A stretch of DNA of 64,000 nucleotides, taken from a virus. How positions within the stretch are numbered: position 1 is the first letter of the stretch; each line of letters opens with the position of its first letter. The notes beneath the pieces are model-generated. The model saw only the letters and a list, made by a program, of their open reading frames with translations, ran no database searches and was not told where the DNA came from. The stretch is from IMG/VR virus record IMGVR_UViG_3300023178_000017, positions 32,001-96,000 of that record; one strand, 5' to 3'. The translations under genes were made by a program, and so were the position numbers. Positions 7,277 through 23,443 of the stretch are shown piece by piece.

Positions 7277-8881
7277 TCAAGAGACTTTATTCGCTCTCGC
7301 ATACGCTCTTTCATATACGTCTAACATATTTATATCACTGGTATCCATGTCTTTTATCCATGGGCCACCACGTGTCCAGTGAATTGCTAAAGCATGTGGT
7401 TTGTCTAAATGTGTTTCATATCCTTCAGTTATAATATGTCTAGGTGGTATTCTACTGATCTTGTCTGTCCATTCAAATTGATGTAAATACTTTCCTGACT
7501 CTGTATTCACTACTTCTGGTGTTAACTTCTTACAGTCTTCGTGTGCATTATTGAATACCATAAGACTAGACCACAATTTCTTAGGATAAGAAACATTCTT
7601 TTCGCCATCAAATTTAGTATCACTATGATTTTCGAAATCGTATTGTACACAAGCAATAGCATCTTTTGGGTCTAAGAAATAGAATAGTGGTAGTATAGAC
7701 TTACTAAACAATATGTCATCATCTAAGAAGATACTGAAACCTTCATAATTTTCTAGGTAAGGTATTAAGAATCTACTATATGTAAACTCTGTTGATTGAT
7801 TAGCATACTCTCTAGTGTATTCAGGTATCTTTGATACATCTAGTATCTTAATATTAGGTTGCCAGTCTTTTATAAATTCATACATGTCACCTTTACCAAA
7901 ACCATATTCAATTCCTTTTTGAAGCAACTTAACATTTGTTTCAGCAAGATCACCATGACGACTATCGTAACCCACATAGATTGATATAGGTTTGCCTTTT
8001 GCCATTTTCATAATGTTTTTATTGAAGTCTGTAACTGTACTTCTAAAACCGATATCAGCAAAAGCACTATGCATTTCTATAAAACCCTCTGTATATGTAA
8101 ATGAAAGATGTGTTGGTTTATCTTTCTTTTCAACAAAGGCTTTCCATAATTCAATTACTTGTTCAGCTGATAGAACTTCTGAATCAAATAAATCAAACTT
8201 ATCCCATACAAACATTTCCATATCTGGATCATCTATCATTTCAAATACTGCTGATCTTACAGAACCTGGATGTATTCTAAGAGTGTATCGTTCTTCTTCT
8301 GAAGAAGGTTTGTTCACTACACCTTGGATTGGATTCCAAAGGCCTTCATGTTTGATACTATCAATTAACCAGTGTGCTTTAGCACTGTGATAATAAGTTG
8401 AATTATTGATTTCTAATTGTCTTTCAGTTGGGCCTTCTGCACCAAAAACATATTTTGTATAGTCTGTTATCTTTTGATATTCATCATTTCGGTTTTTGAA
8501 ATCAAAGCCAGAATGACCAGGTATTGGTGTTTCAGGTTTTTCAGTATAACCGTACTGCAAATAATATTGATAGACATATGCTTGATGTTGTAATTGATTA
8601 AACGGTTGTAATTTTGTTGTATCAGAATAATCGTATAATCTTTCGTCTATCAATTTAGAAGCTTCTTTCCATTTAACATGCTTTAGTTTTGGTAATTTAT
8701 TCTTCATCAACCAATCTAAAGACTTATATGCTTCAGTTTCCTTGTAGTCTTTGGATAGTTCGATACTACCAATATGACAATGATCCATGAAAATGACTTC
8801 ATCGCCACTATCTGGCCCAAATGGTGATCTTCTATTTTGAAATGCTTCTTGTACGGCTTCTAAGGTTTCTAATTTTCTCAT
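7277..8881 (-). CDS. Fusion: N-terminal ParB/Srx-like domain plus C-terminal GT-A fold glycosyltransferase
   Basis: C-half IYVGYDSR...STEFTYSRFLIPYL...IFLDDD...YPKKLWSSLMVFN...LHQFEW...HWTRGGPW (GT8-like); N-half LIDSIKHEGLWNPIQG...IHPGSVR. Confidence 0.8.
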   Translation of the reverse strand: MRKLETLEAVQEAFQNRRSPFGPDSGDEVIFMDHCHIGSIELSKDYKETEAYKSLDWLMKNKLPKLKHVKWKEASKLIDERLYDYSDTTKLQPFNQLQHQAYVYQYYLQYGYTEKPETPIPGHSGFDFKNRNDEYQKITDYTKYVFGAEGPTERQLEINNSTYYHSAKAHWLIDSIKHEGLWNPIQGVVNKPSSEEERYTLRIHPGSVRSAVFEMIDDPDMEMFVWDKFDLFDSEVLSAEQVIELWKAFVEKKDKPTHLSFTYTEGFIEMHSAFADIGFRSTVTDFNKNIMKMAKGKPISIYVGYDSRHGDLAETNVKLLQKGIEYGFGKGDMYEFIKDWQPNIKILDVSKIPEYTREYANQSTEFTYSRFLIPYLENYEGFSIFLDDDILFSKSILPLFYFLDPKDAIACVQYDFENHSDTKFDGEKNVSYPKKLWSSLMVFNNAHEDCKKLTPEVVNTESGKYLHQFEWTDKISRIPPRHIITEGYETHLDKPHALAIHWTRGGPWIKDMDTSDINMLDVYERAYARANKVS

Positions 8882-8910
8882 AATATAAAATATAGTTTAT
8901 TTAACTATAT

Positions 8911-10041
8911 TTATGACGTAATTGGAGATGCTGGCCACTGTTGTGACAATACACCGTCCCAACGATTCACTGGTGTTCTACCTTGTGTAGCGTAAGTACT
9001 TGGTGATCTATGTTGATAGGTAAACGGAGTTCTACCTTGTCTAGAATATGTACTTGGTGATCTATGTTGATAGGTAAACGGAGTTTGACCTTGTCTTGCA
9101 TATGTCACAGGTTGCCTATGTTGATATGTACTTGGCGATTGTGTTATTCTAGGATCTCTGTAAGTACTTGGTGATCTGTGTTGATATGTGCTAGGTACAC
9201 GATATGCTCTAGGATCTCTGTAAGTACTTGGTGATCTATGGTTATACGTGCTAGGTACTCTATAACTTCTTGGATCACGATATGTAGATGGTGATCTGTG
9301 TTGATATGTGCTAGGTACACGATATGATCTTGGGTCTTGATATGTAGACGGCGATCTATGTTGATATGTGCTAGGTACACGATATGATCTAGGATCACGG
9401 TATGTAAATGGCGATCTATGGTTATATGTAAACGGTGACCTATGTTGATACGTAAACGGTGATCTATGTTGATAAGTCGAAGGTTGTCTAGCGCCTCTAA
9501 TATTAGGTTCTTGTGCTGATACAGGGTGTCTGTAACCTGCTGGTTGTTGTGCTGATCTAATATTAGGTTCTTGTGCTGATACAGGGTGTCTATAACCTGC
9601 TGGTTGTCTAGCATTACCAATTACTGGTTGTTGTGCTGATACAGGTGCTCTATATGCTGCTGGTTGTCTAGCATTTCTAATATTAGGTTCTTGTGCTGAT
9701 CTGATATTAGGTTCTTGACCGCTTCTAATATTAGGTTCTTGTGCTGATCTAATATTAGGTTGTTGACCATTCGCAATATAAGGCGACTGGAAAGTAAACG
9801 GTTGCCTTGCGTTATTAGGTTGTTGAGCATTTGCAATATAAGGCGACTGGAAAGTAAACGGTTGCCTTGCGTTATTAGGTTGTCTAGCATTTGCAATATA
9901 AGGTGACTGATATGTAAATGGATTCTGGAATGTAAATGGATTCTGGAATGTAAATGGATTCTGGAAAGTAAAAGGTGTCTGCACAGGAACAGAAGCCTGT
10001 GTAATACCTTGAGCATTTGCTGGATAAAAACCTGTTGCCAT
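8911..10041 (-). CDS. Pro-punctuated repeat protein B (putative antiparallel partner of 10053-11828)
   Basis: Residues 23-356 are 47 units of 6, 8 or 10 aa (PFTFQN, PYIANARQ, PNIRSAQE, PSTYQHRS, PSTYRD, PRSYRV etc.). Confidence 0.85.
   Translation of the reverse strand: MATGFYPANAQGITQASVPVQTPFTFQNPFTFQNPFTFQNPFTYQSPYIANARQPNNARQPFTFQSPYIANAQQPNNARQPFTFQSPYIANGQQPNIRSAQEPNIRSGQEPNIRSAQEPNIRNARQPAAYRAPVSAQQPVIGNARQPAGYRHPVSAQEPNIRSAQQPAGYRHPVSAQEPNIRGARQPSTYQHRSPFTYQHRSPFTYNHRSPFTYRDPRSYRVPSTYQHRSPSTYQDPRSYRVPSTYQHRSPSTYRDPRSYRVPSTYNHRSPSTYRDPRAYRVPSTYQHRSPSTYRDPRITQSPSTYQHRQPVTYARQGQTPFTYQHRSPSTYSRQGRTPFTYQHRSPSTYATQGRTPVNRWDGVLSQQWPASPITS
8974..9975 (-). repeat. Coding tandem repeats (18/24/54/60-nt periods) of protein B
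   Basis: Near-identical 60-nt blocks visible at 9781-9900 and 9181-9420. Confidence 0.9.
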
Positions 10042-10052
10042 TTTACTTTAGA

Positions 10053-11828
10053 TTACTTAGGTGATGGTTTAAAGAAGAAGAAGTTGTGAGCTAATACACC
10101 ATTTGCAAAGAAATTGTGATTGTCGCCAACGTTCTTCAAGTTATACACCTGTTGTGAATCTTTCTCCTCTATTTTAATTATTTCTAGTCCTATTTCTGTA
10201 CCTAGTACAGCATCTGTCATGGTCATCAAATGATCACCGACTGCGATTTCTGAATTTACAAATTCATCTCCACCTTCTTCTTTGTGGAATTCTTTAAATT
10301 TCTCTAAGTTGATAACACCCCATTCACCATTCATTGTTCTAAATGGATGTTCTGAAGTTGTTTCAAGTATTCTACCGTCTGATAAATGTATCTCATGTAT
10401 TGATACTTCTCTTGGTTGCATCAACTCTTCGACTACACCGATCTCTAATTTATTTGTCTCTTCGTTCCAAGTCATTACGTCTTGACCAACTTCTACTGTT
10501 TCAATTGGTACATGACTGCCATCGCCCAACCATATCATTGTGCCGGCAACAAAACATCCTTTGCCACCTCCAGGAATGTTACCAGGTATTGGACCAAACG
10601 GTTGATAGAAGTACACTGCTGGGAAGATAAATGGATATCTTGCTGTTTGTTGTGTAGTACTTGGTTGCCTTGCGTTATTTGGTTGCCTTGCGTTGTTTGG
10701 TTGCCTTGCGTTATTAGGTTGTCTAGCAGCAACTGGTTGTCTTGCCTGATACGTAAACGGCGCACGGAATGTAAATGGAGTCCTTGCGTTATTAGGTTGT
10801 CTTGCCTGATACGTAAACGGCGCACGGAATGTAAATGGAGTCCTTGCGTTATTAGGTTGTCTTGCCTGATACGTAAACGGCGATCTATGGTTATACGTAA
10901 ACGGTGATCTGTGGTTATATGTAAACGGTGATCTGTGGTTATACGTATACGGTGATCTATGTTGATACGTAAATGGCACCCTATATGATCTTGGATCACG
11001 GTATGTAAATGGTGATCTGTACGCATACGTAAACGGTATCTGATATGATCTTGGATCACGGTATGTAAATGGTGATCTATGTTGATACGTAAATGGCACC
11101 CTATATGATCTTGGGTCTCTATATGTAAATGGTGACCTATGTTGATACGTAAACGGTGTTTGTGCGTTTCTGATATTTGGTTCTTGTGCAGACCTAATAT
11201 TTGGTTCTTGACCGCTTCTAATATTAGGCTCTTGAGCAGCAACTGGATGTTGATAAGATGCTGGTGTTTGTCTATTTCTTATAAACGGAGTCTGAGCACT
11301 TACAGGGTGATTATACCCAGCTGGTGTTTGTGCGTTTCTGATAAACGGATTCTGTGCATTAACAGGATGTTGATAAGAAGCAGGTTGTTGTGCGTTTCTG
11401 ATAAACGGATTCTGTGCATTTACTGGATGTCTATAGAATGCTGGTGTTTGTCTATTTCTTATAAACGGATTCTGTGCATTAACAGGATGTCTATATGATA
11501 CAGAGTTTTGTGCATTCGCAATATAAGGCGATTGAGCATTCGCAATATAAGGATACGGCTGTTGTGCATCTCTTATAAATGGATTCTGTCTATTAGCAAT
11601 ATAAGGATACGGCTGTTGTGCATCTCTTATAAATGGATTCTGTCTATTAGCAATATAAGGATATGGTTGTTGTGTAGGTTGTTGACCTGATGCGTTATTC
11701 CACCCACTAGGAGTTTTAATGTAAATTTGATCTACATCTTTCCAAGTGTTTGAAGCAGTTTTAACCCATGCACCTTGGGTTGAATTCCAACCTGAGGGGG
11801 TTTTTACTTTCTGTGAGCCTGTCGCCAT
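10053..11828 (-). CDS. Pro-punctuated repeat protein A with C-terminal Hint (intein-like) domain
   Basis: N-terminal triple x(V/I)KT..xW motif; residues 55-388 are 47 repeat units; residues 425-582 CFVAGTMI...TSEHPF...VYNL...HNFFANGVLAHN. Confidence 0.88.
   Translation of the reverse strand: MATGSQKVKTPSGWNSTQGAWVKTASNTWKDVDQIYIKTPSGWNNASGQQPTQQPYPYIANRQNPFIRDAQQPYPYIANRQNPFIRDAQQPYPYIANAQSPYIANAQNSVSYRHPVNAQNPFIRNRQTPAFYRHPVNAQNPFIRNAQQPASYQHPVNAQNPFIRNAQTPAGYNHPVSAQTPFIRNRQTPASYQHPVAAQEPNIRSGQEPNIRSAQEPNIRNAQTPFTYQHRSPFTYRDPRSYRVPFTYQHRSPFTYRDPRSYQIPFTYAYRSPFTYRDPRSYRVPFTYQHRSPYTYNHRSPFTYNHRSPFTYNHRSPFTYQARQPNNARTPFTFRAPFTYQARQPNNARTPFTFRAPFTYQARQPVAARQPNNARQPNNARQPNNARQPSTTQQTARYPFIFPAVYFYQPFGPIPGNIPGGGKGCFVAGTMIWLGDGSHVPIETVEVGQDVMTWNEETNKLEIGVVEELMQPREVSIHEIHLSDGRILETTSEHPFRTMNGEWGVINLEKFKEFHKEEGGDEFVNSEIAVGDHLMTMTDAVLGTEIGLEIIKIEEKDSQQVYNLKNVGDNHNFFANGVLAHNFFFFKPSPK
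10083..10556 (-). other. Hint / bacterial intein-like domain without endonuclease
   Basis: Cys1 (G|CFVAGT), block B TxxH (TSEH), terminal His-Asn; +1 residue is Phe. Confidence 0.88.
10665..11666 (-). repeat. Coding tandem repeats of protein A
   Basis: Exact 60-nt duplication at 10741-10860; 54-nt repeats near 11540-11660; 24-nt and 18-nt arrays. Confidence 0.9.
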
Positions 11829-11861: not shown

Positions 11862-14159
11862 TTATGAATAAAGAATCCATAGATCACCAACTGCTCCGTC
11901 ACCTGAAGTAGGTGCAGAAGTTGATTGATATATGTTTCTCGCAACACCACCACTATTTGAAGCGTATGATGTTGAAATTTGTGATGCTCTAAAGTTTGCG
12001 TCTGTTAATGTTAACGAACCTGTAGAAGCACCAGTTGCAGTTGTTGTAGCAACTACAAACTCATCAGCACTTTCGTCCCAACCCATAAATGCGTTGTCGC
12101 CAGTTGAACCTCTTTCTAACACAAGACCAAGGTCATTTGAGTTAGCACCTGTGTTACCAGACCCTAATTCAATCAATGCATCACTGATTGTTGTATTTGT
12201 AGAATCTACAGTTGATGTAGTACCATTAACTGTTAGGTTACCAGATAATGTTAAGTTACCAAATTGTACGTTACTTGTTGTAGCAACTGCCTGACCAATA
12301 CTTATTTCACCTGAACTAATTGAGACACCAGTTCCTGCACTAATATGACTTCTAACTTCTGAAGCGCTTGGGCCAGTATATGTGATTACACCAGTAGATG
12401 AATTGTATGCTAAACTTCCATCACCACCTGAATCAGTAACAGAGATTGAACCTCTTGCATCTGAATCAGCATATTGTGTAATTGTTGTTGCAAGTGTTAA
12501 GGTACCATTTACATCATCGTATGTTGATGTGATGCCTGTACCTGCTGTTACTAAAGCATTTACTCTGTCATCAACTCTTTCGTCTGTGAAGTATAAGTTT
12601 GATGAACCTTCTGTTAACGAATCTGTATCTGGTAATAATGCATTAACTCTAGCATCTGCTCTAGCGTTTGTAAAGTAAAGGTTTGAACCTTCTGAAATAT
12701 GAGCAGTTGTTGAAGGTATTGTAATAGCACCTGTACTTGAATCATATGCACCTGCACCAGAGTTTGTACTTAGAGATGCTCTTGCTCTAGCATCTGTATA
12801 GAATAAGTTTGTTGAACCTTCTGTAATGTCATCTGAATCACCACTTAGTTCACTTAATGCATCTGCTGTATCTACTTGTGCATCAACATAAGTTTTGACT
12901 GCTAACTGAGAAGGTACTAAAGTATCTGAAGCACTACCAAAATTAACATCTGTATCGATTGCATTTTGAACTCTAGCGTCTGCTCTTGCATTTGTAAAGT
13001 ATAAGTTTGTAGAGCCTTCTGTTATTTCATCTGTATTGTCTTTACTTGCGACTTGTGAATCTACATATGCTTTAACTGATTGTTGAGAAGGTATTCTTGT
13101 TTCACTATTAGACACCATATTATCTTCATCGATAAGAGCTGCTGTGATTCTAGCATCTGCTCTAGCGTCAGTGAAATATAAGTTTGAACCTTCTGCTAAA
13201 TCACCAGTGTCATGGTTAGCAATACTAGTAACTGTACCAGTTACGTTACCAGTTAAGTTTCCTTCGAATGTTCCTGCAACAAAAGTTTCTGAACCGACTG
13301 TCCATTTATCGTTGGTCTCATCCCATAAGAATGTTTTTGCAGTTGAACTACCTCTAGTTACACTCAAACCAGCATCTTCTGTTGGTGAACCTGAAGTAAA
13401 GTTACTGTTTAATGCGATTGTGTTGTCTGCAAGGTTAATTGTCTCTGAGTTTACAGTTGTTGTTGTACCTGAAACTGTTAGTGAACCTGAGATTGTAACA
13501 TCATCGTTAAGTGAAATAACACCATTTCCGTTACCACTCAATACTAAGTTAGTATCAGCTGATCTGGACACGATTTGATCAACTGCAATATTGTTACTAA
13601 ATGTGATGTTGTTTCCTGCACTGTTGGTAATATTGTTACCGTCTTCGATTTGAACTGGACCTTTAAGTGCAATAACACCTGATCCTGTTGCATCTAACTC
13701 TAAATCACCAGAACCACTTGTCTGTATAGACATGTTTTGGTTAGAGTCAGCACTAAAGACGATTGTACCTGAGTCATCTGAAATAACCTGTTGTCCGTTA
13801 ACATATAAAGAACCAGGTCCAACGTATACGTCTTTCCATGTTCTACTTGATGAACCTAAGTCGTATGTGTTATCTGCGCTTGGTATGATGTTACCTGCAA
13901 ATGTACCACCACCTAAGTATGATAATACATCTGAGTCGCCGTATTGGGCTGCACCTGCGATTGTTAGTGTGTTAGCAGAATCATCGTATGTTAATGTGAT
14001 GCCTGTACCTGCTGTTAAAAGTTGAGCGACTCTATCGTCTACTGACTCATCTAATGCTGATGCTGAAATTGAACCAACGTATGATCCAGAAGAGCTAATA
14101 ACCTCTGTTCCACCGATTGACAGGCCGTTTTTAATATTAAAATTCTTTTCCCCTGCCAT
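11862..14159 (-). CDS. Tail fibre-like protein
   Basis: Gly/Ser/Thr/Asp-rich; five EG(S/T)xNLYFTxxR repeats; GNLTVNGT motifs; C-terminal APTSGDGAVGDLWILYS. Confidence 0.75.
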   Translation of the reverse strand: MAGEKNFNIKNGLSIGGTEVISSSGSYVGSISASALDESVDDRVAQLLTAGTGITLTYDDSANTLTIAGAAQYGDSDVLSYLGGGTFAGNIIPSADNTYDLGSSSRTWKDVYVGPGSLYVNGQQVISDDSGTIVFSADSNQNMSIQTSGSGDLELDATGSGVIALKGPVQIEDGNNITNSAGNNITFSNNIAVDQIVSRSADTNLVLSGNGNGVISLNDDVTISGSLTVSGTTTTVNSETINLADNTIALNSNFTSGSPTEDAGLSVTRGSSTAKTFLWDETNDKWTVGSETFVAGTFEGNLTGNVTGTVTSIANHDTGDLAEGSNLYFTDARADARITAALIDEDNMVSNSETRIPSQQSVKAYVDSQVASKDNTDEITEGSTNLYFTNARADARVQNAIDTDVNFGSASDTLVPSQLAVKTYVDAQVDTADALSELSGDSDDITEGSTNLFYTDARARASLSTNSGAGAYDSSTGAITIPSTTAHISEGSNLYFTNARADARVNALLPDTDSLTEGSSNLYFTDERVDDRVNALVTAGTGITSTYDDVNGTLTLATTITQYADSDARGSISVTDSGGDGSLAYNSSTGVITYTGPSASEVRSHISAGTGVSISSGEISIGQAVATTSNVQFGNLTLSGNLTVNGTTSTVDSTNTTISDALIELGSGNTGANSNDLGLVLERGSTGDNAFMGWDESADEFVVATTTATGASTGSLTLTDANFRASQISTSYASNSGGVARNIYQSTSAPTSGDGAVGDLWILYS

Positions 14160-16621: not shown

Positions 16622-18190
16622 TTAGAATGTACCACCGTCTATAGCAGTAACAGATACAGCACCTGAAGAGACTGTAAAGTTACTTGAGTCGAATGAAGCA
16701 ATACCTTTAGCAGATGTTGTAGCATCATCGATTGCAACATCACCAGATGTTACAGTAAAGTATGAAGCTGAGAAAGATGCGATACCTTTATTAGCGTCTG
16801 TTGCATCTTCACCTGCTATTGTTATACTACCGTCAGCGTTTGTTACATCGATACCTTCGCCAGCTGAAAGAGCAGCAAGTTCCATATCTCCGTTAGAACC
16901 ATTACCAATTAGTAATTGTCCTGCTGTAGGAGCTGCACCGTCTATAGAAGTAATTGAACCTGAAAGTGCAAGTCCTGAAACTTCTAAGTTACCGAATACT
17001 GCGTTACCTACTGAACCAGAGAATACTGAAGATGTGTCTGTAGCGTCTTGGATAAATTTAAATTTACCGTCAGAATCATCCATACCAAAGAAACCAATTT
17101 TAGCAGTAGAACCATTGTGCCACTTAAATTTGATACCTCTGTCTAGGTTGTCATCTGAAGCGTCATCACCGATTTCAAACACTGGATCTGCAACTGAAGT
17201 AGTTGTAGAGTTTACAGTAGTTGTAGTACCGTTAACAGTCAAGTTACCTGAAACTGTTAAGTTACCTGAAGCGGCAATATTTGTTGATGTAATGTCATCT
17301 GAAGTTAGTGTACCATCTACTTGTACGTTGTTAAACTGTACGTTTGATGATGTGCCAACATCCTGACCGATTGCTAATGTTACGCCGTTGCCTGAAGCAG
17401 TTGATGAAACACCAGTACCACCTAAAACAGAAAGTACTTCTGAGTCAAGGTCGATAGCAATAGATGTAGTACCATCTGAGATGTCTAAATCTTGTGCTGT
17501 TACTTGTGAATCAACATATGCTTTAACAGATTGCTGTGTAGGAACTTTAACGTCTGAATCAGAAGCCATGTTGTCTTCGTCAACTAAGAAGTCAATGTTT
17601 CCTACTTGAACTGCGTTAGCTTGAATTGCAGTAACACCTGAAGCGTTAACTGTTATGTCACCTGAAAGTGAAACGTTATCAAATGAATCTGTACCATCAT
17701 AGATCAAAATTTGACCTGATGAAGGAGCAGAAATATCTGAGTCTGATGCACCAGCAAGTGTTGAAGTTGTAGATACGAAAGAAAGGTTTCCTGAAGCATC
17801 TGTTGCAAGAACCTGGTTAGCAGAACCATCAGCTGATGGTAATGTAAAGGTTACTGAACTTGCAACTGAATCAGGAGCTTTCAGACCAACGAAGTTTGAA
17901 CCGTTGTCTGAATCTTCTCTAAGTTGTAATGAAGCACCAGAAGTTGCACCGTTACCAACAATAAAGTTTGAAGGCGTTGGAGCATCACCGTCTACGATAT
18001 CGGTATAATATTTACCGCCGATTTCGTGAATAACAGCTGATGAGCCTGAGTCTACTGACTCGATATACAATTTAGCAGAAGCACCGTCATTCGATCTATC
18101 CTGTACATACGCTAATTCGCCTTCGCTCAAGTCTGAGACTGTTGGCGCACTCGCTCCTGTACTTCTTTTAATTTGAATAACTGTTGCCAT
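16622..18190 (-). CDS. Tail fibre-like protein
   Basis: [10 protein letters not shown]...LSEGELAY; [22 protein letters not shown]; [11 protein letters not shown]; ends IDGGTF. Confidence 0.72.
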
Positions 18191-18938: not shown

Positions 18939-19868
18939 CTAATTATTTAATTGGGAATATGGGACTTTTGTATGTATTTTTTCTACTGTAGTTGGATCAG
19001 TTTTTACGTATGCTTCTTCTAATTGTTTTACAGTACCGTCTGCATCTTTAACATAAACTTGTTTAACTTCTGCTACAGGACCTATAGGTCTTCTGCTAGA
19101 ATATGTTATCTGATATGTAAATGGTGATCTATGTTGATATGTAGTTTGTACAACAATGTTACCACTTCTTGTATTCTGAGCATTTGCAATATATGGTGAA
19201 GGTTGAGAAGCAGAAACCCTATATGTATCTGGCGATCTATGTTGATACGTAAATGGTATTCTATGTTGATAGAACGATGGTGATCTATGTTGATACGTAA
19301 ATGGTGTTCTACCTGTTGTAGGATATGTTATAGGTTGCCTATGTTGATATGTTGTTGGTGTTCGCCCTGTTGCCTGATATGTTGAAGGCTGTCTTGCATC
19401 TCTAATAAATGGATTCTGTCTATCAACAGGATGTCTGTAAGTTGTAGGTGAAGGTTTATTTCTTATAAACGGATTCTGTTTATTTACAGGATGTCTGTAA
19501 TTAGCTGATATACGATAGCTACCAATTATCGGATTCTGTCTGTTAACAGGATGTTGATAAGCTGCTGGTTGACGTTGATTTGCAACATAAGGTGATGGTC
19601 TATTTCTAATAAACGGATTCTGTTGTTGTGCAATGTATGGTGATTGAAATGGACTTCTTGCGATAGCAGCTGTCTGTGCGTTTGCTATGTAAGGAATAGG
19701 CACTCTAGTATTAGCAACTGTCTGAGCGTTTGCTGATGCACGGGCATTAGCAATGTACGGCACAGGCGTAGTACCGTTAGTAGAATTTTGTCTATTAGCA
19801 ATATAAGGATACGGCTGTTGTCCTGGCGTTGCGTTTGAATTGCTATATGTTACTTGTACGGTTGGCAT
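18939..19868 (-). CDS. Pro-punctuated repeat protein D (putative antiparallel partner of 19870-21534)
   Basis: Residues 19-260 use the same unit vocabulary as proteins A/B; C-terminal VYVKD...AYVKT motifs. Confidence 0.85.
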   Translation of the reverse strand: MPTVQVTYSNSNATPGQQPYPYIANRQNSTNGTTPVPYIANARASANAQTVANTRVPIPYIANAQTAAIARSPFQSPYIAQQQNPFIRNRPSPYVANQRQPAAYQHPVNRQNPIIGSYRISANYRHPVNKQNPFIRNKPSPTTYRHPVDRQNPFIRDARQPSTYQATGRTPTTYQHRQPITYPTTGRTPFTYQHRSPSFYQHRIPFTYQHRSPDTYRVSASQPSPYIANAQNTRSGNIVVQTTYQHRSPFTYQITYSSRRPIGPVAEVKQVYVKDADGTVKQLEEAYVKTDPTTVEKIHTKVPYSQLNN

Positions 19869-19869
19869 T

Positions 19870-21534
19870 TTATACTATTATTGGCCCCCCACTACCTGCA
19901 TTATATGCTGCTCTTAAACTTATGGGGCTTGATGACCAAGAACCGTTGAAGTATGAAGCTATATGAAAATATGTATAATAAGTGTCTGTGCCTTTTGTTG
20001 CTTTTATTCCAAAATAAACATCATTTGATGTTAATTGTACTGGATTACCTGTGCTGTCGTATACACCCCACTTAAAAAATCTAGCAGTGCGAGTACCATT
20101 AAATCCACCCCTTGAAGTTGAACCAGACCAGAAATTATAATATTGGCCTCTGGTTTTTCCACAAACATGTGGATAAAATCCATAACTGTTTCCACCTCCT
20201 CCGTAACAATTTGTTTGAGCTTGAGTACCTGATACCGATTCACCACTTGCATAATATGCTACATCAAAATTCCAAGTATCGTCAATTATACCATTAGCAT
20301 TCAAATCGGTAATAGGCATATAAAATCTATAATAAAAACTCCAACCACTATTACTAAAAGAGTTATAATGACCATACGATATTCTAAAAGCCCCTAAAGG
20401 ATTTGTCTGAACAGTATTATTGTTAGCTGCAAAATCAAATTGCATATAACAACCACATTCGGTATGATTAAAACCAGGATTACCAGTTGCTAATTGAAGA
20501 GTATTCCAACTTGGTACACTAAACATAGAAGCAGTTCCTGAAGGTGGGTCAGAATTTATATAATTCGTACTACCACCAAAAGGATATACATCCCAAACAG
20601 GATTACTTATACCTGAGCCCCAAGGTTGAGGGTTCGGTTGATTAGCTAAAGTTGCACTTGTTGCTGTTGAACTTCCAGACAGTGCTGATTCGCCTACAAT
20701 ACCTTCATATGATGTTGGTACCTGAGCAGTCGATGGTGACTGATATATGTAAGGCGTTTGGCCTTGTGCTGAATAAGTCGAAGGCGATTGATAAATGTAA
20801 GGCGATGGTCTTTGCGCCTGATACGTAAACGGATTTTGATAAATCGATGGCACCCTATATGTTTGAGGACTTCTTTGTTGTGCTTGATAAGTTGAAGGCA
20901 CTCTATAAGGTACAGGTTGTTGATTTGACTCCTGTGCGTTTATATTTGCTGGTGACTGGTGTTGATACGTAGTAGGTTGTTGTGCCTGATATGTTACAGG
21001 ATTTCTGTAACTTCTTGGGTCACGATATGTACTAGGTGATCTATAAGCATAACTTACAGGATTTCTGTAACTTCTTGGGTCACGATATGTACTAGGTGAT
21101 TGATGTTGATACGCAACTATAACCTGTGCATTTCTTGGGTCTCTATAAGTTGAAGGACTTTGATGTTGATACGTAAACGGTGTTTGTGCGTTTGCAGGAT
21201 ACGGATACGGATTCTGTCTATTAGCAATATAAGGTGATTGTGCATCGGCCTGATAAGTATACGTTTGTTGTGCGTTTCTTATAAAAGGATTTTGTCTCGA
21301 TCTTATGTTAGGTTGCTGTGCGTTTCTTATAAAAGGATTTTGCCTATTAACAGGATTTCGATAAATTATTGGTTGTTGATTCTGATAAGTCGAAGGAGAC
21401 TGAAACGTATAAGGAACAATCGATGGTTGTTGTCTTATATTTGGTTCTTGAATGTTAGCAGGTTGCCTTGCTATGTAAGGTTGCTGAAAACTACCGCCAT
21501 TTAAATTGTGTTTAATGTAAATTTTATCTGCCAT
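19870..21534 (-). CDS. Pro-punctuated repeat protein C with C-terminal globular (putative receptor-binding) domain
   Basis: N-terminal KIYIKH; residues 19-260 repeats; about 280 aa aromatic/Gly/Asn-rich non-repetitive C-terminus. Confidence 0.85.
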   Translation of the reverse strand: MADKIYIKHNLNGGSFQQPYIARQPANIQEPNIRQQPSIVPYTFQSPSTYQNQQPIIYRNPVNRQNPFIRNAQQPNIRSRQNPFIRNAQQTYTYQADAQSPYIANRQNPYPYPANAQTPFTYQHQSPSTYRDPRNAQVIVAYQHQSPSTYRDPRSYRNPVSYAYRSPSTYRDPRSYRNPVTYQAQQPTTYQHQSPANINAQESNQQPVPYRVPSTYQAQQRSPQTYRVPSIYQNPFTYQAQRPSPYIYQSPSTYSAQGQTPYIYQSPSTAQVPTSYEGIVGESALSGSSTATSATLANQPNPQPWGSGISNPVWDVYPFGGSTNYINSDPPSGTASMFSVPSWNTLQLATGNPGFNHTECGCYMQFDFAANNNTVQTNPLGAFRISYGHYNSFSNSGWSFYYRFYMPITDLNANGIIDDTWNFDVAYYASGESVSGTQAQTNCYGGGGNSYGFYPHVCGKTRGQYYNFWSGSTSRGGFNGTRTARFFKWGVYDSTGNPVQLTSNDVYFGIKATKGTDTYYTYFHIASYFNGSWSSSPISLRAAYNAGSGGPIIV

Positions 21535-21535
21535 A

Positions 21536-23443
21536 TCATATCACAAACCATAAATGTCCAACTTCTTTACCTGTACCACTTGGTGTACCAGATAGTGAAG
21601 AAGCACTAACAACTTCATAATCTAACTCAACATCATCGCCGTCTAATTTAACACCGTTTGATGTGTTCACTGATAAAGTAGCAACACCATCTAATGAATC
21701 ACCTGAAGAACCTGCGTTATAAGATTTCGCAAGACCTGAACCAGCAGATATGACACTATTTACTCTATCATCTGTAAAGTATTTATTAGTTTGTTCTGAT
21801 ATAGAATCGGTACCTGTTGAGTTATCTGCAACTTGTAAATCACCATTAGAATCAAATACTAGTATTTGACCAGCAGATGCACTAGATGTACTACCTACAT
21901 CTGTTAAATCAGATATAGCAGAGTTCATTGTTGTGTTTATTGATACATTGCCTTTAGCAGTCTGTGTGACTGAACCTGTAACTGCACCAGTCAATGAAAA
22001 GTCTGAATTATCTAAAACTAAATCTAAAGTATTATCTGAGTCATCATAGGTAACTGAAAGACCTGATTCAGTGTTTGAACTAATCATTGTACCGACTGTG
22101 TCAGCAATTCTTTCTACAATGTCATCAACTACAAAACTAGAACCGTTGTACTTAAGAACACTATTAGTATTTGCGCCACTTGTATTTACATCTGAAAGAT
22201 CATCGATACTAGCAGCTGCGATTCTAGCGTCTGCTCTACCGTCTGTATAATAAAGATTAGAACTTCCTTCTGTTAAATCATCAGTGTCATGGTTTGATAA
22301 ACTTGAAACTGTACCTGTAAGATGTCCTGTTGATACATTTAAAACTGTTGTTGAACCGTCTGCTGTAATTGTAGATAATCTTGCAGTAGCATCGGTACCA
22401 TTTGTACCGTTATCGATGATTGTTTGACCACCACTTGATAGAACATCACCTTTTAGATTACCATTAAAAGTAGTTGCAGTCATGTCTGTTGCATGAATGT
22501 TCTGCCATTTTAGTATACTACTTCCAAGTTCGTGTGTGTTGTTAGCACTTGGTAAAACATCTGAGTCTATTGAACCTGTGAATGATATTGTATCACTAGA
22601 TGCGTTACCTAAATCGATGTTACAATTCAGTGATGATAATCCATTAACTGTTAAAGCGCCAGTAGTTGTAACTGTTGAGGCATTTAAATCACCGCCTGTA
22701 AGTGTTGCAGTTCCATCACTCAATGTACCCACGTTGACTGTTGCGCTAAAGTTTGCATTTACACCACCAGTAATACTACCTGAGTTGATACTCATGGTGC
22801 TATCAGTAATTGTAGGCGCAGTCATTACACCGCCTGTTGTGATTGTTATATCATCTTCTGCAAATGTTTTACCTGCAAGTTGAATGTTGAAACCAGTCTC
22901 TAATTCTGTTGTGTTATTTGTGTTTGAAGCATTAAGAATAACACCATTTGAGTTGTTGTTAAAGATTGAGTTTGTATCTGATAACTGCCAGTATGAAGCA
23001 CCTGTACTTGCTAATGCAGTACCTAAGTATGAACCTGTGTAAGAATATAGAACGAATCTATCGCCATTTGATAAACCAGAACCGTATGTAGCACCTTGTA
23101 AGTTAATTCTTCCATAACTACCATCTGAATTTTGGCTAGTGATCTGATAGTCTATACCTTCTATTAAGTGAGAACCGTTGACAAAGACCTGAATTCGGTC
23201 TTGTACAAATTTCATCACATTGTTAAACTGATCAGCGCCTTCGAAATGCGTTTCACCACCAGTTGCAATATACACATACTCTTGGAAGTAAAATGCTTTA
23301 TCTTCTACACTATTAACAGCGTCAACTAAAGTTGCTTGAGCAGTAGTTCTAAGACCACTAATATCACCCACGTCATTAGCCAACACATTATATTGTTGTC
23401 TAAAATTTTCTATAGTACTGAAACTGTCTACTGTTTTAGCCAT
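21536..23443 (-). CDS. Tail fibre-like protein
   Basis: LTEGSSNLYYTDGRADAR repeat; N-terminal DVGDISGL.T....LVDAVN; C-terminal PSGTGKEVGHLWFVI similar to the 11862-14159 C-terminus. Confidence 0.72.
   Translation of the reverse strand: MAKTVDSFSTIENFRQQYNVLANDVGDISGLRTTAQATLVDAVNSVEDKAFYFQEYVYIATGGETHFEGADQFNNVMKFVQDRIQVFVNGSHLIEGIDYQITSQNSDGSYGRINLQGATYGSGLSNGDRFVLYSYTGSYLGTALASTGASYWQLSDTNSIFNNNSNGVILNASNTNNTTELETGFNIQLAGKTFAEDDITITTGGVMTAPTITDSTMSINSGSITGGVNANFSATVNVGTLSDGTATLTGGDLNASTVTTTGALTVNGLSSLNCNIDLGNASSDTISFTGSIDSDVLPSANNTHELGSSILKWQNIHATDMTATTFNGNLKGDVLSSGGQTIIDNGTNGTDATARLSTITADGSTTVLNVSTGHLTGTVSSLSNHDTDDLTEGSSNLYYTDGRADARIAAASIDDLSDVNTSGANTNSVLKYNGSSFVVDDIVERIADTVGTMISSNTESGLSVTYDDSDNTLDLVLDNSDFSLTGAVTGSVTQTAKGNVSINTTMNSAISDLTDVGSTSSASAGQILVFDSNGDLQVADNSTGTDSISEQTNKYFTDDRVNSVISAGSGLAKSYNAGSSGDSLDGVATLSVNTSNGVKLDGDDVELDYEVVSASSLSGTPSGTGKEVGHLWFVI

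What the first reader, a model, noticed from the sequence alone, without database searches (positions are those of the whole stretch)
9580..11500. Compensatory deviations at paired positions, recurring in both pairs
SEEN: rare deviant units sit opposite each other. A unit 30 PFTYAYRS (QH->AY) faces B PVIGNARQ (IR->IG). In the other pair, C PVSYAYRS faces D PIIGSYRI, the same His->Tyr / Arg->Gly swap. A unit 7 SVSYRH (Pro lost) faces the only PRITQS. A unit 44 PVAARQ faces PFTYQS, whereas PNNARQ faces PFTFQN. TYQA usually faces (I/V)AN and TYQH usually faces IR(N/S/D). INFERENCE: cross-strand size/charge complementarity (bulky Tyr opposite Gly), the protein analogue of compensatory base-pair changes, giving residue-level contact predictions.
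Basis: partly seen in the sequence, partly recalled or inferred. Interest (0 to 1): 0.8.

Follow-up and report, generated by a model that had tools for sequence, protein, structure and literature searches.

The report
Pairing code in two-chain phage fibre
Two neighbouring gene pairs of an uncultured marine T4-like phage encode repeat proteins that mirror each other unit for unit when one is read backwards. Facing residues co-vary by fixed rules across dozens of related phages, which points to a two-chain antiparallel fibre held in register by an amino-acid pairing code I could not find described anywhere.

Summary
A (10053-11828, minus strand) and B (8911-10041, minus strand) each have 47 proline-started units. 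They align without a gap, antiparallel, over about 340 residues. C and D do the same over about 240.

In 38 non-redundant gene pairs (36 from IMG/VR) the mirror persists while the paired span varies from 144 to 538 residues (186-538 in full-length A/B-type pairs). Pro-Pro spacings are even 3157 times and odd twice. Only even unit positions co-vary between chains: His faces Arg/Lys, Ala/Asn faces Ala, and Phe/Ile/Val or (Ser/Ala)-Tyr faces Gly.

A score matrix trained on the other phages picks only AxB and CxD, each in one register. Single-chain fusions of C and D sit at the same genomic position elsewhere.

Tyr after Gln/Asn faces Arg in 33 of 34 units. The AY/IG pair shared by both pairs is probably inherited. 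The "lost Pro faces PRITQS" pair is not general.

Structure predictions were uninformative, and there is no match in Pfam, PHROGs, NCBIfam or PDB. This scan has already reported the same kind of mirror pair on other genomes.

The parts
10053..11828 (-). Gene A, 591 aa. It has a conserved N-terminal domain (residues 1-54), an array of 47 units, an aromatic/Gly linker and a C-terminal Hint domain.
   Evidence: ORF; units; Pfam Intein_splicing E 5e-8
10665..11666 (-). Repeat array of A, residues 55-388. It pairs antiparallel with B residues 356-23.
   Evidence: Gapless alignment
10083..10559 (-). Hint (intein-like) domain of A, residues 424-582. Cys1, the block-B His and the terminal His-Asn are invariant in 18 orthologues. 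The residue after His-Asn is Phe, so there is no splicing nucleophile.
8911..10041 (-). Gene B, 376 aa: 47 units followed by a conserved C-terminal tail.
8974..9975 (-). Repeat array of B, residues 23-356.
11013..11036 (-). A unit 30, PFTYAYRS, the only AY unit of A.
9604..9627 (-). B unit 18, PVIGNARQ, the only IG unit of B. It faces A unit 30.
11487..11504 (-). A unit 7, SVSYRH (no Pro). It faces B PRITQS at 9136-9153.
   Evidence: not a general rule
10719..10736 (-). A unit 44, PVAARQ. It faces B PFTYQS at 9904-9921.
19870..21534 (-). Gene C, 554 aa: array at residues 19-260 (20755-21480), then a globular C-terminal domain of unknown fold.
18939..19868 (-). Gene D, 309 aa: array at residues 19-260 (19089-19814), then a conserved C-terminal tail.
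21037..21060 (-). C unit PVSYAYRS.
19509..19532 (-). D unit PIIGSYRI. It faces the C AY unit.

Best explanation
A with B, and C with D, are the two chains of a long antiparallel, in-register, extended (beta-type) fibre shaft in the tail-fibre module of a T4-like marine phage.

Each chain is a string of 6-, 8- or 10-residue units that start with Pro. The strictly even unit lengths keep one face of each chain (the even positions) turned toward the partner along the whole shaft. That face carries a pairing code:
- In 8-residue units, TY-type always faces I-type.
- Position 6 of the TY unit pairs with positions 4 and 2 of the I unit: His with Arg/Lys (plus Asn at position 2), Ala/Asn/Ser with Ala (plus Tyr at position 2), and Phe/Ile/Val or Ser/Ala-Tyr with Gly.
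- Position 2 of the TY unit pairs with positions 6 and 8 of the I unit: Phe with Ala/Gly plus Gln, Leu with Gln plus Glu, Ala with Ser plus Thr.
- In 6-residue units, Phe4 pairs with Asn2, Val6 with Ala2, and Asp/Asn/Ser6 with Val/Ser2.

I infer that the code, together with the barcode of unit lengths, fixes the partner and the register. This lets two fibre pairs in one virion stay orthogonal and stops hundreds of near-identical repeats from slipping.

The conserved N-terminus of chain 1 and the conserved C-terminus of chain 2 lie at the same end, presumably the attachment end. The variable end (Hint domain, globular domain or Gly/aromatic tail, plus the N-terminus of chain 2) would be the distal tip.

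Shown: the mirror, the co-variation, its persistence through length changes, and the fused forms. Inferred: physical binding, beta geometry, and the roles of the two ends.
For: 1. Gapless antiparallel coincidence of unit boundaries: 47 of 47 in A/B and 23 in C/D, far above shuffles, other offsets, parallel alignment and self-pairing.
2. 52 distinct adjacent gene pairs (38 clusters below 80% identity) from IMG/VR keep the mirror. Cognate pairs match a median 0.90 of prolines; non-cognate pairs match 0.51.
3. The paired span ranges from 144 to 538 residues (186-538 in full-length A/B-type pairs), yet the offset k minus length of chain 2 is 33-35 in 32 of 38 clusters. Chain-2 length correlates with span at r = 0.99. 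So insertions and deletions in one gene are matched in the other, although unit order differs greatly between loci.
4. Pro-Pro spacings are even 3157 times and odd 2 times. Only even positions co-vary, and they do so on antiparallel diagonals.
5. 633 of 673 paired 8-residue units are TY-type facing I-type; TY facing TY occurs 3 times and IR facing IR once.
6. Cross-validation: a pair-score matrix trained without the window gives positive scores only to AxB (+906 bits, one register) and CxD (+214 bits). AxD, CxB and all self-pairs are negative.
7. Fused forms: at least 12 single proteins of 446-610 aa carry a C-like N-terminus and a D-like C-terminus. Their N-arm and C-arm are complementary without a gap over 100-139 residues around a 130-282 residue middle part. 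Observed scores are 253-347 against at most 122 in 100 unit-order shuffles. They occupy the C/D position, about 7 kb upstream of an A/B-type pair, in related contigs.
8. There is no inverted DNA repeat between A and B, so the mirror exists only at protein level.
9. Context: baseplate wedge and fibre genes on both sides.
10. Weak: an AlphaFold2 model of fused protein P0083 has low confidence (mean pLDDT 35.5; 50-65 at the ends). It draws strands 14-37, 45-49 and 55-57 and strands 417-440, 405-409 and 397-399. If these pair with each other, all three satisfy i+j = 454. That is one of the two diagonals on which co-variation is seen; the code-based register is 456. Coordinates could not be inspected.
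Against: - No experiment and no confident structural model shows that the chains bind or that they are beta strands.
- B alone is predicted as unstructured (pLDDT 40). This fits a chain that needs its partner, but it equally fits a failed prediction.
- A 340-residue two-stranded ribbon with polar faces has no solved precedent. The true assembly may contain more chains, for example three A/B pairs.
- His facing Arg is not an obviously favourable contact.
- There are exceptions to the code: 38 of 364 His units face Ala, and 4 of 26 Gly units face His, Ala or Gly.
- Loci and repeat units are related by descent, so counts overstate the number of independent events. The within-locus shuffles control only for composition.
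Confidence: 0.75

Rival explanations
1. The chains do pair antiparallel and in register, but not as a hydrogen-bonded two-stranded ribbon. Extended strands might pack face to face, as in a steric zipper. Several A/B pairs might build a multi-chain beta-helix or prism whose core is the conserved odd face (Pro, Thr/Ile, Gln/Asn, Arg/Gln).
For: Phage fibres are usually trimeric (established knowledge). The odd positions are highly conserved and do not co-vary, which would suit a common core or a second interface. Co-variation falls on two diagonals (i+j = 8 and 10 within 8-residue units), which both geometries allow.
Against: Nothing in the sequences demands more than two chains. The fused hairpin forms show that one N-arm and one C-arm suffice for complementarity.
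Confidence: 0.2
2. B (and D) is not a permanent fibre subunit. It would be a matched template or chaperone that holds the repeat array of A (or C) extended and in register during assembly and is then released.
For: Phage fibres often need dedicated chaperones encoded next to them (T4 gp38 and gp57A; Pam3, PMC9608196 abstract). Complementarity alone cannot distinguish a transient partner from a permanent one.
Against: Fused single-chain forms keep both arms in one polypeptide, which makes release impossible there. The C-terminus of chain 2 is among the most conserved parts and lies next to the conserved N-terminal domain of chain 1, as expected for a joint attachment site.
Confidence: 0.08
3. 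The particular deviant pairs in this window (AY facing IG in both pairs, SVSYRH facing PRITQS) are coincidence or shared ancestry, with no compensatory meaning.
For: Within the window the chance of one AY meeting one IG is about 1/10 per pair. The A and C blocks share their flanking units and look paralogous. SVSYRH/PRITQS is not repeated elsewhere.
Against: Across 12 loci and in both chain orientations, Gly units face hydrophobic position-6 units in 22 of 26 cases, against 7 expected. The AY/IG pair has been kept on both sides through divergence to 59-65% DNA identity.
Confidence: 0.1
4. The mirror is a DNA-level by-product, for example an inverted duplication read on the other strand (sense/antisense peptides).
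For: None found.
Against: Only one 14-nt inverted repeat lies between the two genes. The reverse complement of the TY-unit codons contains stop codons in all frames (direct reading of the sequence).
Confidence: 0.01

Closest known systems
Streptococcal antigen I/II stalk (A-region helix wound with P-region polyproline helix; PMC3178794)
   Same: Two different repeat arrays run antiparallel and pair along their length. They form a long stalk with the variable head at the far end and both termini at the base. This is exactly the topology of the fused forms, and of C/D once split.
   Different: AgI/II is one chain made of an alpha helix plus a PPII helix with 82- and 39-residue repeats. Here the units are 6-10 residues with strict two-residue periodicity and Pro every unit, which excludes an alpha helix. 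The arrays usually lie on two separate gene products, and there is a residue-level code with mirrored unit lengths. There is no sequence similarity.
Heterodimeric leucine zippers (Fos/Jun type) and antiparallel coiled-coil arms of SMC/Rad50 (own knowledge)
   Same: Partner and register specificity is written in co-varying interface residues of a periodic sequence. SMC arms are antiparallel, with a head at one end and a hinge at the other.
   Different: Those have heptad periodicity and alpha helices. Here Pro occurs every 6-10 residues and the periodicity is even, with no heptads.
Beta-structured phage and virus fibre shafts: T4 gp34-gp37, gp12, adenovirus triple beta-spiral (own knowledge)
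   Same: The genes sit in the tail-fibre module of a T4-like phage. The shaft is long, repetitive and probably beta-rich, with a separate tip domain.
   Different: Known shafts are parallel homotrimers of one gene product. Here two different chains (or two arms of one chain) run antiparallel. There are no Pfam, PHROG, NCBIfam or PDB sequence matches.
Bacterial intein-like (BIL) / Hint autoprocessing domains (C-terminus of A only)
   Same: Cys1, the block-B His and the terminal His-Asn are conserved.
   Different: There is no +1 nucleophile, so cleavage rather than splicing is expected. Its position at the tip of a fibre chain is unusual.

Membership tests
Hint / intein-like domain (A residues 424-582) | N-terminal Cys/Ser nucleophile, block-B T-x-x-H, C-terminal His-Asn | tested here: met
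   Cys424, His494 and His581-Asn582 are invariant in 18 orthologues (alignment numbering is one lower than protein numbering). Pfam Intein_splicing scores E 5e-8 at 33.3 bits, just under the cut-off of 35.8. NCBIfam intein_Nterm scores 20.3 bits against a cut-off of 24.5.
Splicing intein | Cys/Ser/Thr immediately after the terminal Asn | tested here: not met
   The next residue is Phe in the window and F/G/M/L/A/K/Y in orthologues.
T4-type tail fibre proteins (gp34-37, gp12) | Sequence membership in a known fibre family | tested here: not met
   No PHROG, Pfam or NCBIfam family matches B, C or D, and only the Hint domain matches for A. tblastn against 50,697 phage records found no homologue.
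Collagen-like / PPII bundles | Three-residue periodicity (Gly-X-Y or PPII) | tested here: not met
   Unit lengths are 6, 8 and 10. Pro-Pro spacings are even in 3157 of 3159 cases.
Coiled coil (zipper, SMC arm) | Heptad periodicity, helix-compatible sequence | tested here: not met
   Pro opens every 6-10 residue unit.
Antigen I/II-type hairpin stalk | N-arm and C-arm of different repeat type pairing antiparallel with a head domain between them | tested here: inconclusive
   The topology is met by the fused forms at sequence level. Physical pairing is not shown, and the secondary-structure types differ.
Cementoin (trappin transglutaminase-substrate repeats) | Pfam PF10511 above its gathering score | tested here: not met
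   24.1 bits against a cut-off of 27, with no stretch passing on its own.
Sense/antisense complementary peptides | The two coding sequences are reverse complements | tested here: not met
   Only one 14-nt inverted repeat.

The most novel reading that the evidence does not exclude
These proteins embody a natural, modular protein-protein pairing code for extended chains, analogous to base pairing. There is a small alphabet of 6/8/10-residue units, each with a defined complementary unit, and at least two independently variable 'letters' per 8-residue unit. Evolution re-writes the code in two genes at once, to build fibres of any length and to keep several fibre pairs in one virion orthogonal. If it works as read, the code could be copied to design orthogonal, length-programmable heterodimeric beta zippers.
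Probability: 0.5. Interest if true: 0.92.

Novelty: categorically new. Interest (0 to 1): 0.82.

Why it matters
Fibrous proteins built from short repeats face a register problem. Known solutions are homotrimers nucleated from one end, or heptad codes in coiled coils. Here sequence data alone indicate a different solution: two chains, or two arms of one chain, whose repeat arrays are mirror complements in unit length and type, with residue-level co-variation confined to one face.

This gives direct, testable contact predictions for a fold that has no solved relative. It explains how one phage can carry two non-crossing fibre pairs. It also offers a possible natural template for programmable beta-type heterodimers.

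The family is confined to uncultured marine T4-like phages. It has 152 representatives at 50% identity among 1.84 billion, all unnamed. That may be why it has escaped description in the literature I could search.

Tried and rejected
- Complex prediction of A(2-423)+B with 18-row alignments: no verdict. It is not used as evidence either way.
- AlphaFold2 of B alone: pLDDT 39.9 with no secondary structure. Uninformative.
- AlphaFold2 of fused protein P0083 with 42 sequences: mean pLDDT 35.5. Only the terminal strands are cited, and only as a weak hint.
- tblastn of A, B and the N-terminal domain of A against cultured phage records: no homologue. The one hit was a 31% low-complexity match to a Ruminococcus phage.
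- PDB sequence search for B and C: nothing.
- ESM Atlas search for the C-terminal domain of C: only sub-threshold hits at 0.82.
- psbA (PF00124) is absent from the 105-kb record, which is 58% complete. The host therefore remains unknown.
Context came from the search for related loci instead.
- Co-substitution between near-identical relatives: only 9 substitutions were available, so no test was possible.
- Unit-level alignment between diverged loci: class changes in chain 1 go with class changes in chain 2 (1275 double against 314 and 396 single, odds ratio 17.7). The pairwise comparisons are not independent and positional orthology is doubtful, so this is not used as primary evidence.
- Intra-chain hairpin for A or B: rejected. 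Self-pairing scores are negative, and block counts fit only A with B: 5 twelve-residue blocks in the N-half of A match 5 in the C-half of B, and 3 match 3 in the other halves.
- DNA inverted-repeat origin: rejected.
Full report
**What is there.** The window is part of a 105-kb IMG/VR virus record, 58% complete, with about 35% GC. It carries T4-like baseplate-wedge and fibre genes, and its small terminase is 78% identical in DNA to that of Synechococcus phage S-RIM8.

Four minus-strand genes encode proline-punctuated repeat proteins:
- A: 10053-11828, 591 aa.
- B: 8911-10041, 376 aa.
- C: 19870-21534, 554 aa.
- D: 18939-19868, 309 aa.

A ends in a Hint (intein-like) domain. C ends in a globular domain of unknown fold. 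B, C and D match no Pfam, PHROG or NCBIfam family, and B and C, the two searched, match no PDB sequence.

**Checking the observation.** Cutting at Pro gives 47 units in A and 47 in B, each of 6, 8 or 10 residues.

I used a test that needs no segmentation. It counts places where a Pro in one chain meets a unit end in the other along each antiparallel diagonal.
- AxB reaches 47 coincidences at a single offset. The next offset gives 33.
- Parallel alignment gives at most 29, and self-pairing at most 31.
- Shuffling the order of B's units gives 23.6 +/- 2.2, with a maximum of 33 in 1000.
- CxD gives 23 against 14.7 +/- 1.2.

**Is the mirror a property of the family?** A scan of IMG/VR returned 77 loci. 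Nearly all hold two adjacent repeat genes on one strand.
- There are 52 distinct pairs. Together with the window's two pairs they fall into 38 clusters below about 80% identity.
- Cognate pairs match a median 90% of prolines on one gapless antiparallel diagonal. Non-cognate combinations match 51%, and the high non-cognate values all come from near-identical relatives or from one truncated protein.
- The paired span ranges from 144 to 538 residues (186-538 in full-length A/B-type pairs), yet the anchoring offset is constant: k minus chain-2 length is 33-35 in 32 of 38 clusters. Chain-2 length tracks the span at r = 0.99.
- The order of unit types differs greatly between loci.

Because the order differs, the mirror cannot simply be inherited. 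Each expansion or rearrangement in one gene has been matched in the other.

There is no inverted DNA repeat between A and B, so no DNA-level mechanism produces the mirror.

Among 673 paired 8-residue units, 633 are a TY-type unit (P-x-T-Y-...) facing an I-type unit (P-x-I-...). TY facing TY occurs 3 times and IR facing IR once.

Position 6 of the TY unit predicts position 4 of the I unit:
- His faces Arg/Lys in 325 of 364 units.
- Ala or Asn faces Ala in 179 of 180.
- S-F faces Gly in 8 of 8.
- N-I and N-V face Gly in 9 of 9.
- Q-Y and N-Y face Arg in 33 of 34.
- S-Y and A-Y face Gly in 3 of 6.

Mutual information between partners is high only for even positions:
- TY6 with I4: 0.82 bits.
- TY6 with I2: 0.80 bits.
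- TY2 with I6: 0.76 bits.
- TY2 with I8: 0.60 bits.
- TY8 with I2: 0.61 bits.

Odd positions that do vary (TY5, I5, I7) stay at or below about 0.17 bits. Shuffling partners within each locus, which controls for locus composition, gives 0.30 +/- 0.02 for TY6-I4 against 0.86 observed. The other pairs behave the same way.

A second 'letter' lies at TY2. Phe faces Ala/Gly at I6 in 415 of 432 units. Leu faces Gln in 31 of 34. Ala faces Ser in 16 of 21.

Six-residue units follow analogous rules:
- PFTF faces P-N-x-A in 54 of 57 units.
- TY..V faces P-A in 47 of 47.
- TY..D faces P-V in 24 of 24.

- Tyr alone does not call for Gly. It does so only after a small residue (Ser or Ala). Aliphatic Ile or Val after Asn do the same.
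- His+Arg, Ala+Ala and Phe+Gly do not conserve volume. 'Size compensation' is too simple, and 'specific pairing code' describes the data better.
- The AY/IG pair occurs in A/B and in C/D within the same local block, with identical 12-residue neighbours on both sides. The DNA of the two blocks is 65% (A/C) and 59% (B/D) identical, with fewer than half of shared residues using the same codon. This looks like one old event retained on both sides in two paralogous pairs, not two independent compensations.
- Independent support comes instead from other loci. There, Gly units lie at other positions and in either chain: 12 loci, 22 of 26 facing F/Y/I/V/L, against 7 expected from within-locus shuffles with a maximum of 14 in 2000.
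- The pair 'Pro lost facing PRITQS' is not general. Four other Pro-less units of that type, one of them in D of this window, face ordinary partners.

**Cross-validation.** I trained a log-odds matrix of facing residues on the 36 clusters outside the window and used it to score every antiparallel offset of every combination of A, B, C and D. Only AxB (+906 bits at one offset) and CxD (+214 bits) are positive. AxD, CxB, AxC, BxD and all self-pairs are negative at every substantial overlap. The code learned elsewhere therefore predicts both the partner and the register here.

**Fused forms.** Among the database homologues are proteins of 446-610 aa with a C-like N-terminus and a D-like C-terminus.
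- Their N-terminal arm is complementary, gapless and antiparallel, to their C-terminal arm over 100-139 residues, around a middle part of 130-282 residues.
- Observed scores are 253-347 against at most 122 in unit-order shuffles.
- In related contigs such a single gene (484-611 aa) occupies the position of the C/D pair, about 7 kb upstream of an A/B-type pair. Other contigs have the split pair at that position.
- One protein (P0005) appears joined at the other end: a D-like start, an array that folds back on itself, then a C-like tip domain.

Both kinds of fusion make sense only if the two arrays run antiparallel side by side.

**How it probably works.** Even-only spacing (3157 even against 2 odd) means the chain never changes face over hundreds of residues. 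That is the signature of an extended beta-type strand. It excludes three-residue (PPII or collagen) and heptad periodicities.

Co-variation limited to one face and lying on antiparallel diagonals fits that face being the inter-chain contact. If Pro faces Pro, the prolines occupy non-hydrogen-bonded sites on the outer edges of a two-stranded ribbon, where they would also block lateral aggregation (inference).

A fully extended A/B shaft would be about 110 nm long. The family range is roughly 60-180 nm (inference).

The conserved N-terminal domain of chain 1 and the conserved C-terminal tail of chain 2 lie at one end, presumably the attachment site. The variable end carries a Hint domain, a globular domain or a Gly/aromatic tail.

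Whether more than two chains assemble, and which diagonal is directly opposed, remain open.

**Structure prediction.** The complex job gave no verdict. B alone was unstructured. The fused protein gave a low-confidence model. Its only strands, at the two ends, would pair with i+j = 454. That is one of the two co-varying diagonals and two residues from the code-based register of 456. This is a hint, not evidence of weight.

**Comparison and novelty.**
- By architecture, the closest thing I know is the antigen I/II stalk of streptococci (PMC3178794).
- By logic, the closest are heterospecific coiled coils.
- By biology, the closest are beta-structured phage fibre shafts.

None of these shares the defining features found here: two different chains, mirrored 6/8/10-residue units, strict two-residue periodicity and a residue-level code.

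I found no description in the searchable literature, and all database members are unnamed.

Earlier notes of this scan describe the same kind of mirror pair on other genomes, and on this stretch, with the same reading. I re-derived everything here independently. New in this report are the even-position co-variation analysis, the correction of the Tyr/Gly rule, the cross-validated matrix and the syntenic fused forms.

Noticed in passing
window 10083-10559 (-): The Hint domain at the C-terminus of A has invariant Cys1, block-B His and terminal His-Asn, but Phe follows the Asn. It probably cleaves itself off and does not splice. It sits just after a Gly run that resembles the C-terminal Gly/aromatic tails of Hint-less homologues.
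   Followed up: partly
window 7277-8881 (-): A 534-aa protein lies directly downstream of B. It has a weak glycosyltransferase family 8 match (E 7e-5, below the cut-off) and a strong phrog_28018 match (E 1e-41). It could modify the fibre.
   Followed up: no
L017 6160-6443, L029 5365-5670, L050 5416-5732, L058 5547-6076: In loci where chain 1 ends in a non-Hint globular domain, a small non-repeat ORF of 85-95 aa lies between the two repeat genes. It may be an assembly factor or adaptor.
   Followed up: no
L086-L093 (about 8001-9600 in each): Single-gene fused hairpin forms replace the C/D pair at the syntenic position. L108 and L109 also hold a 512-531 aa gene with high self-complementarity at the A/B position.
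   Followed up: partly
window 11664-11828 (-) and 8914-8973 (-): The N-terminal 54 residues of chain 1 (a duplicated K-T-P-x-G-W-N motif) and the last roughly 20 residues of chain 2 (R-W-D ... W-P) are the most conserved parts of the family. They lie at the same end of the predicted duplex.
   Followed up: partly
window 11862-14159 (-), 16622-18190 (-), 21536-23443 (-): These three large fibre-like proteins flank the two repeat pairs. The first and third carry the repeated motif 'NLY(F/Y)T..RA(D/R)AR', and the first two match phrog_697.
   Followed up: no
L009 5431-5749: In this locus chain 1 carries about 95 extra repeat residues beyond the part paired with chain 2. The 320-nt gap before chain 2 is itself repetitive without a clean ORF. 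This may be a frameshifted or third pairing segment.
   Followed up: no
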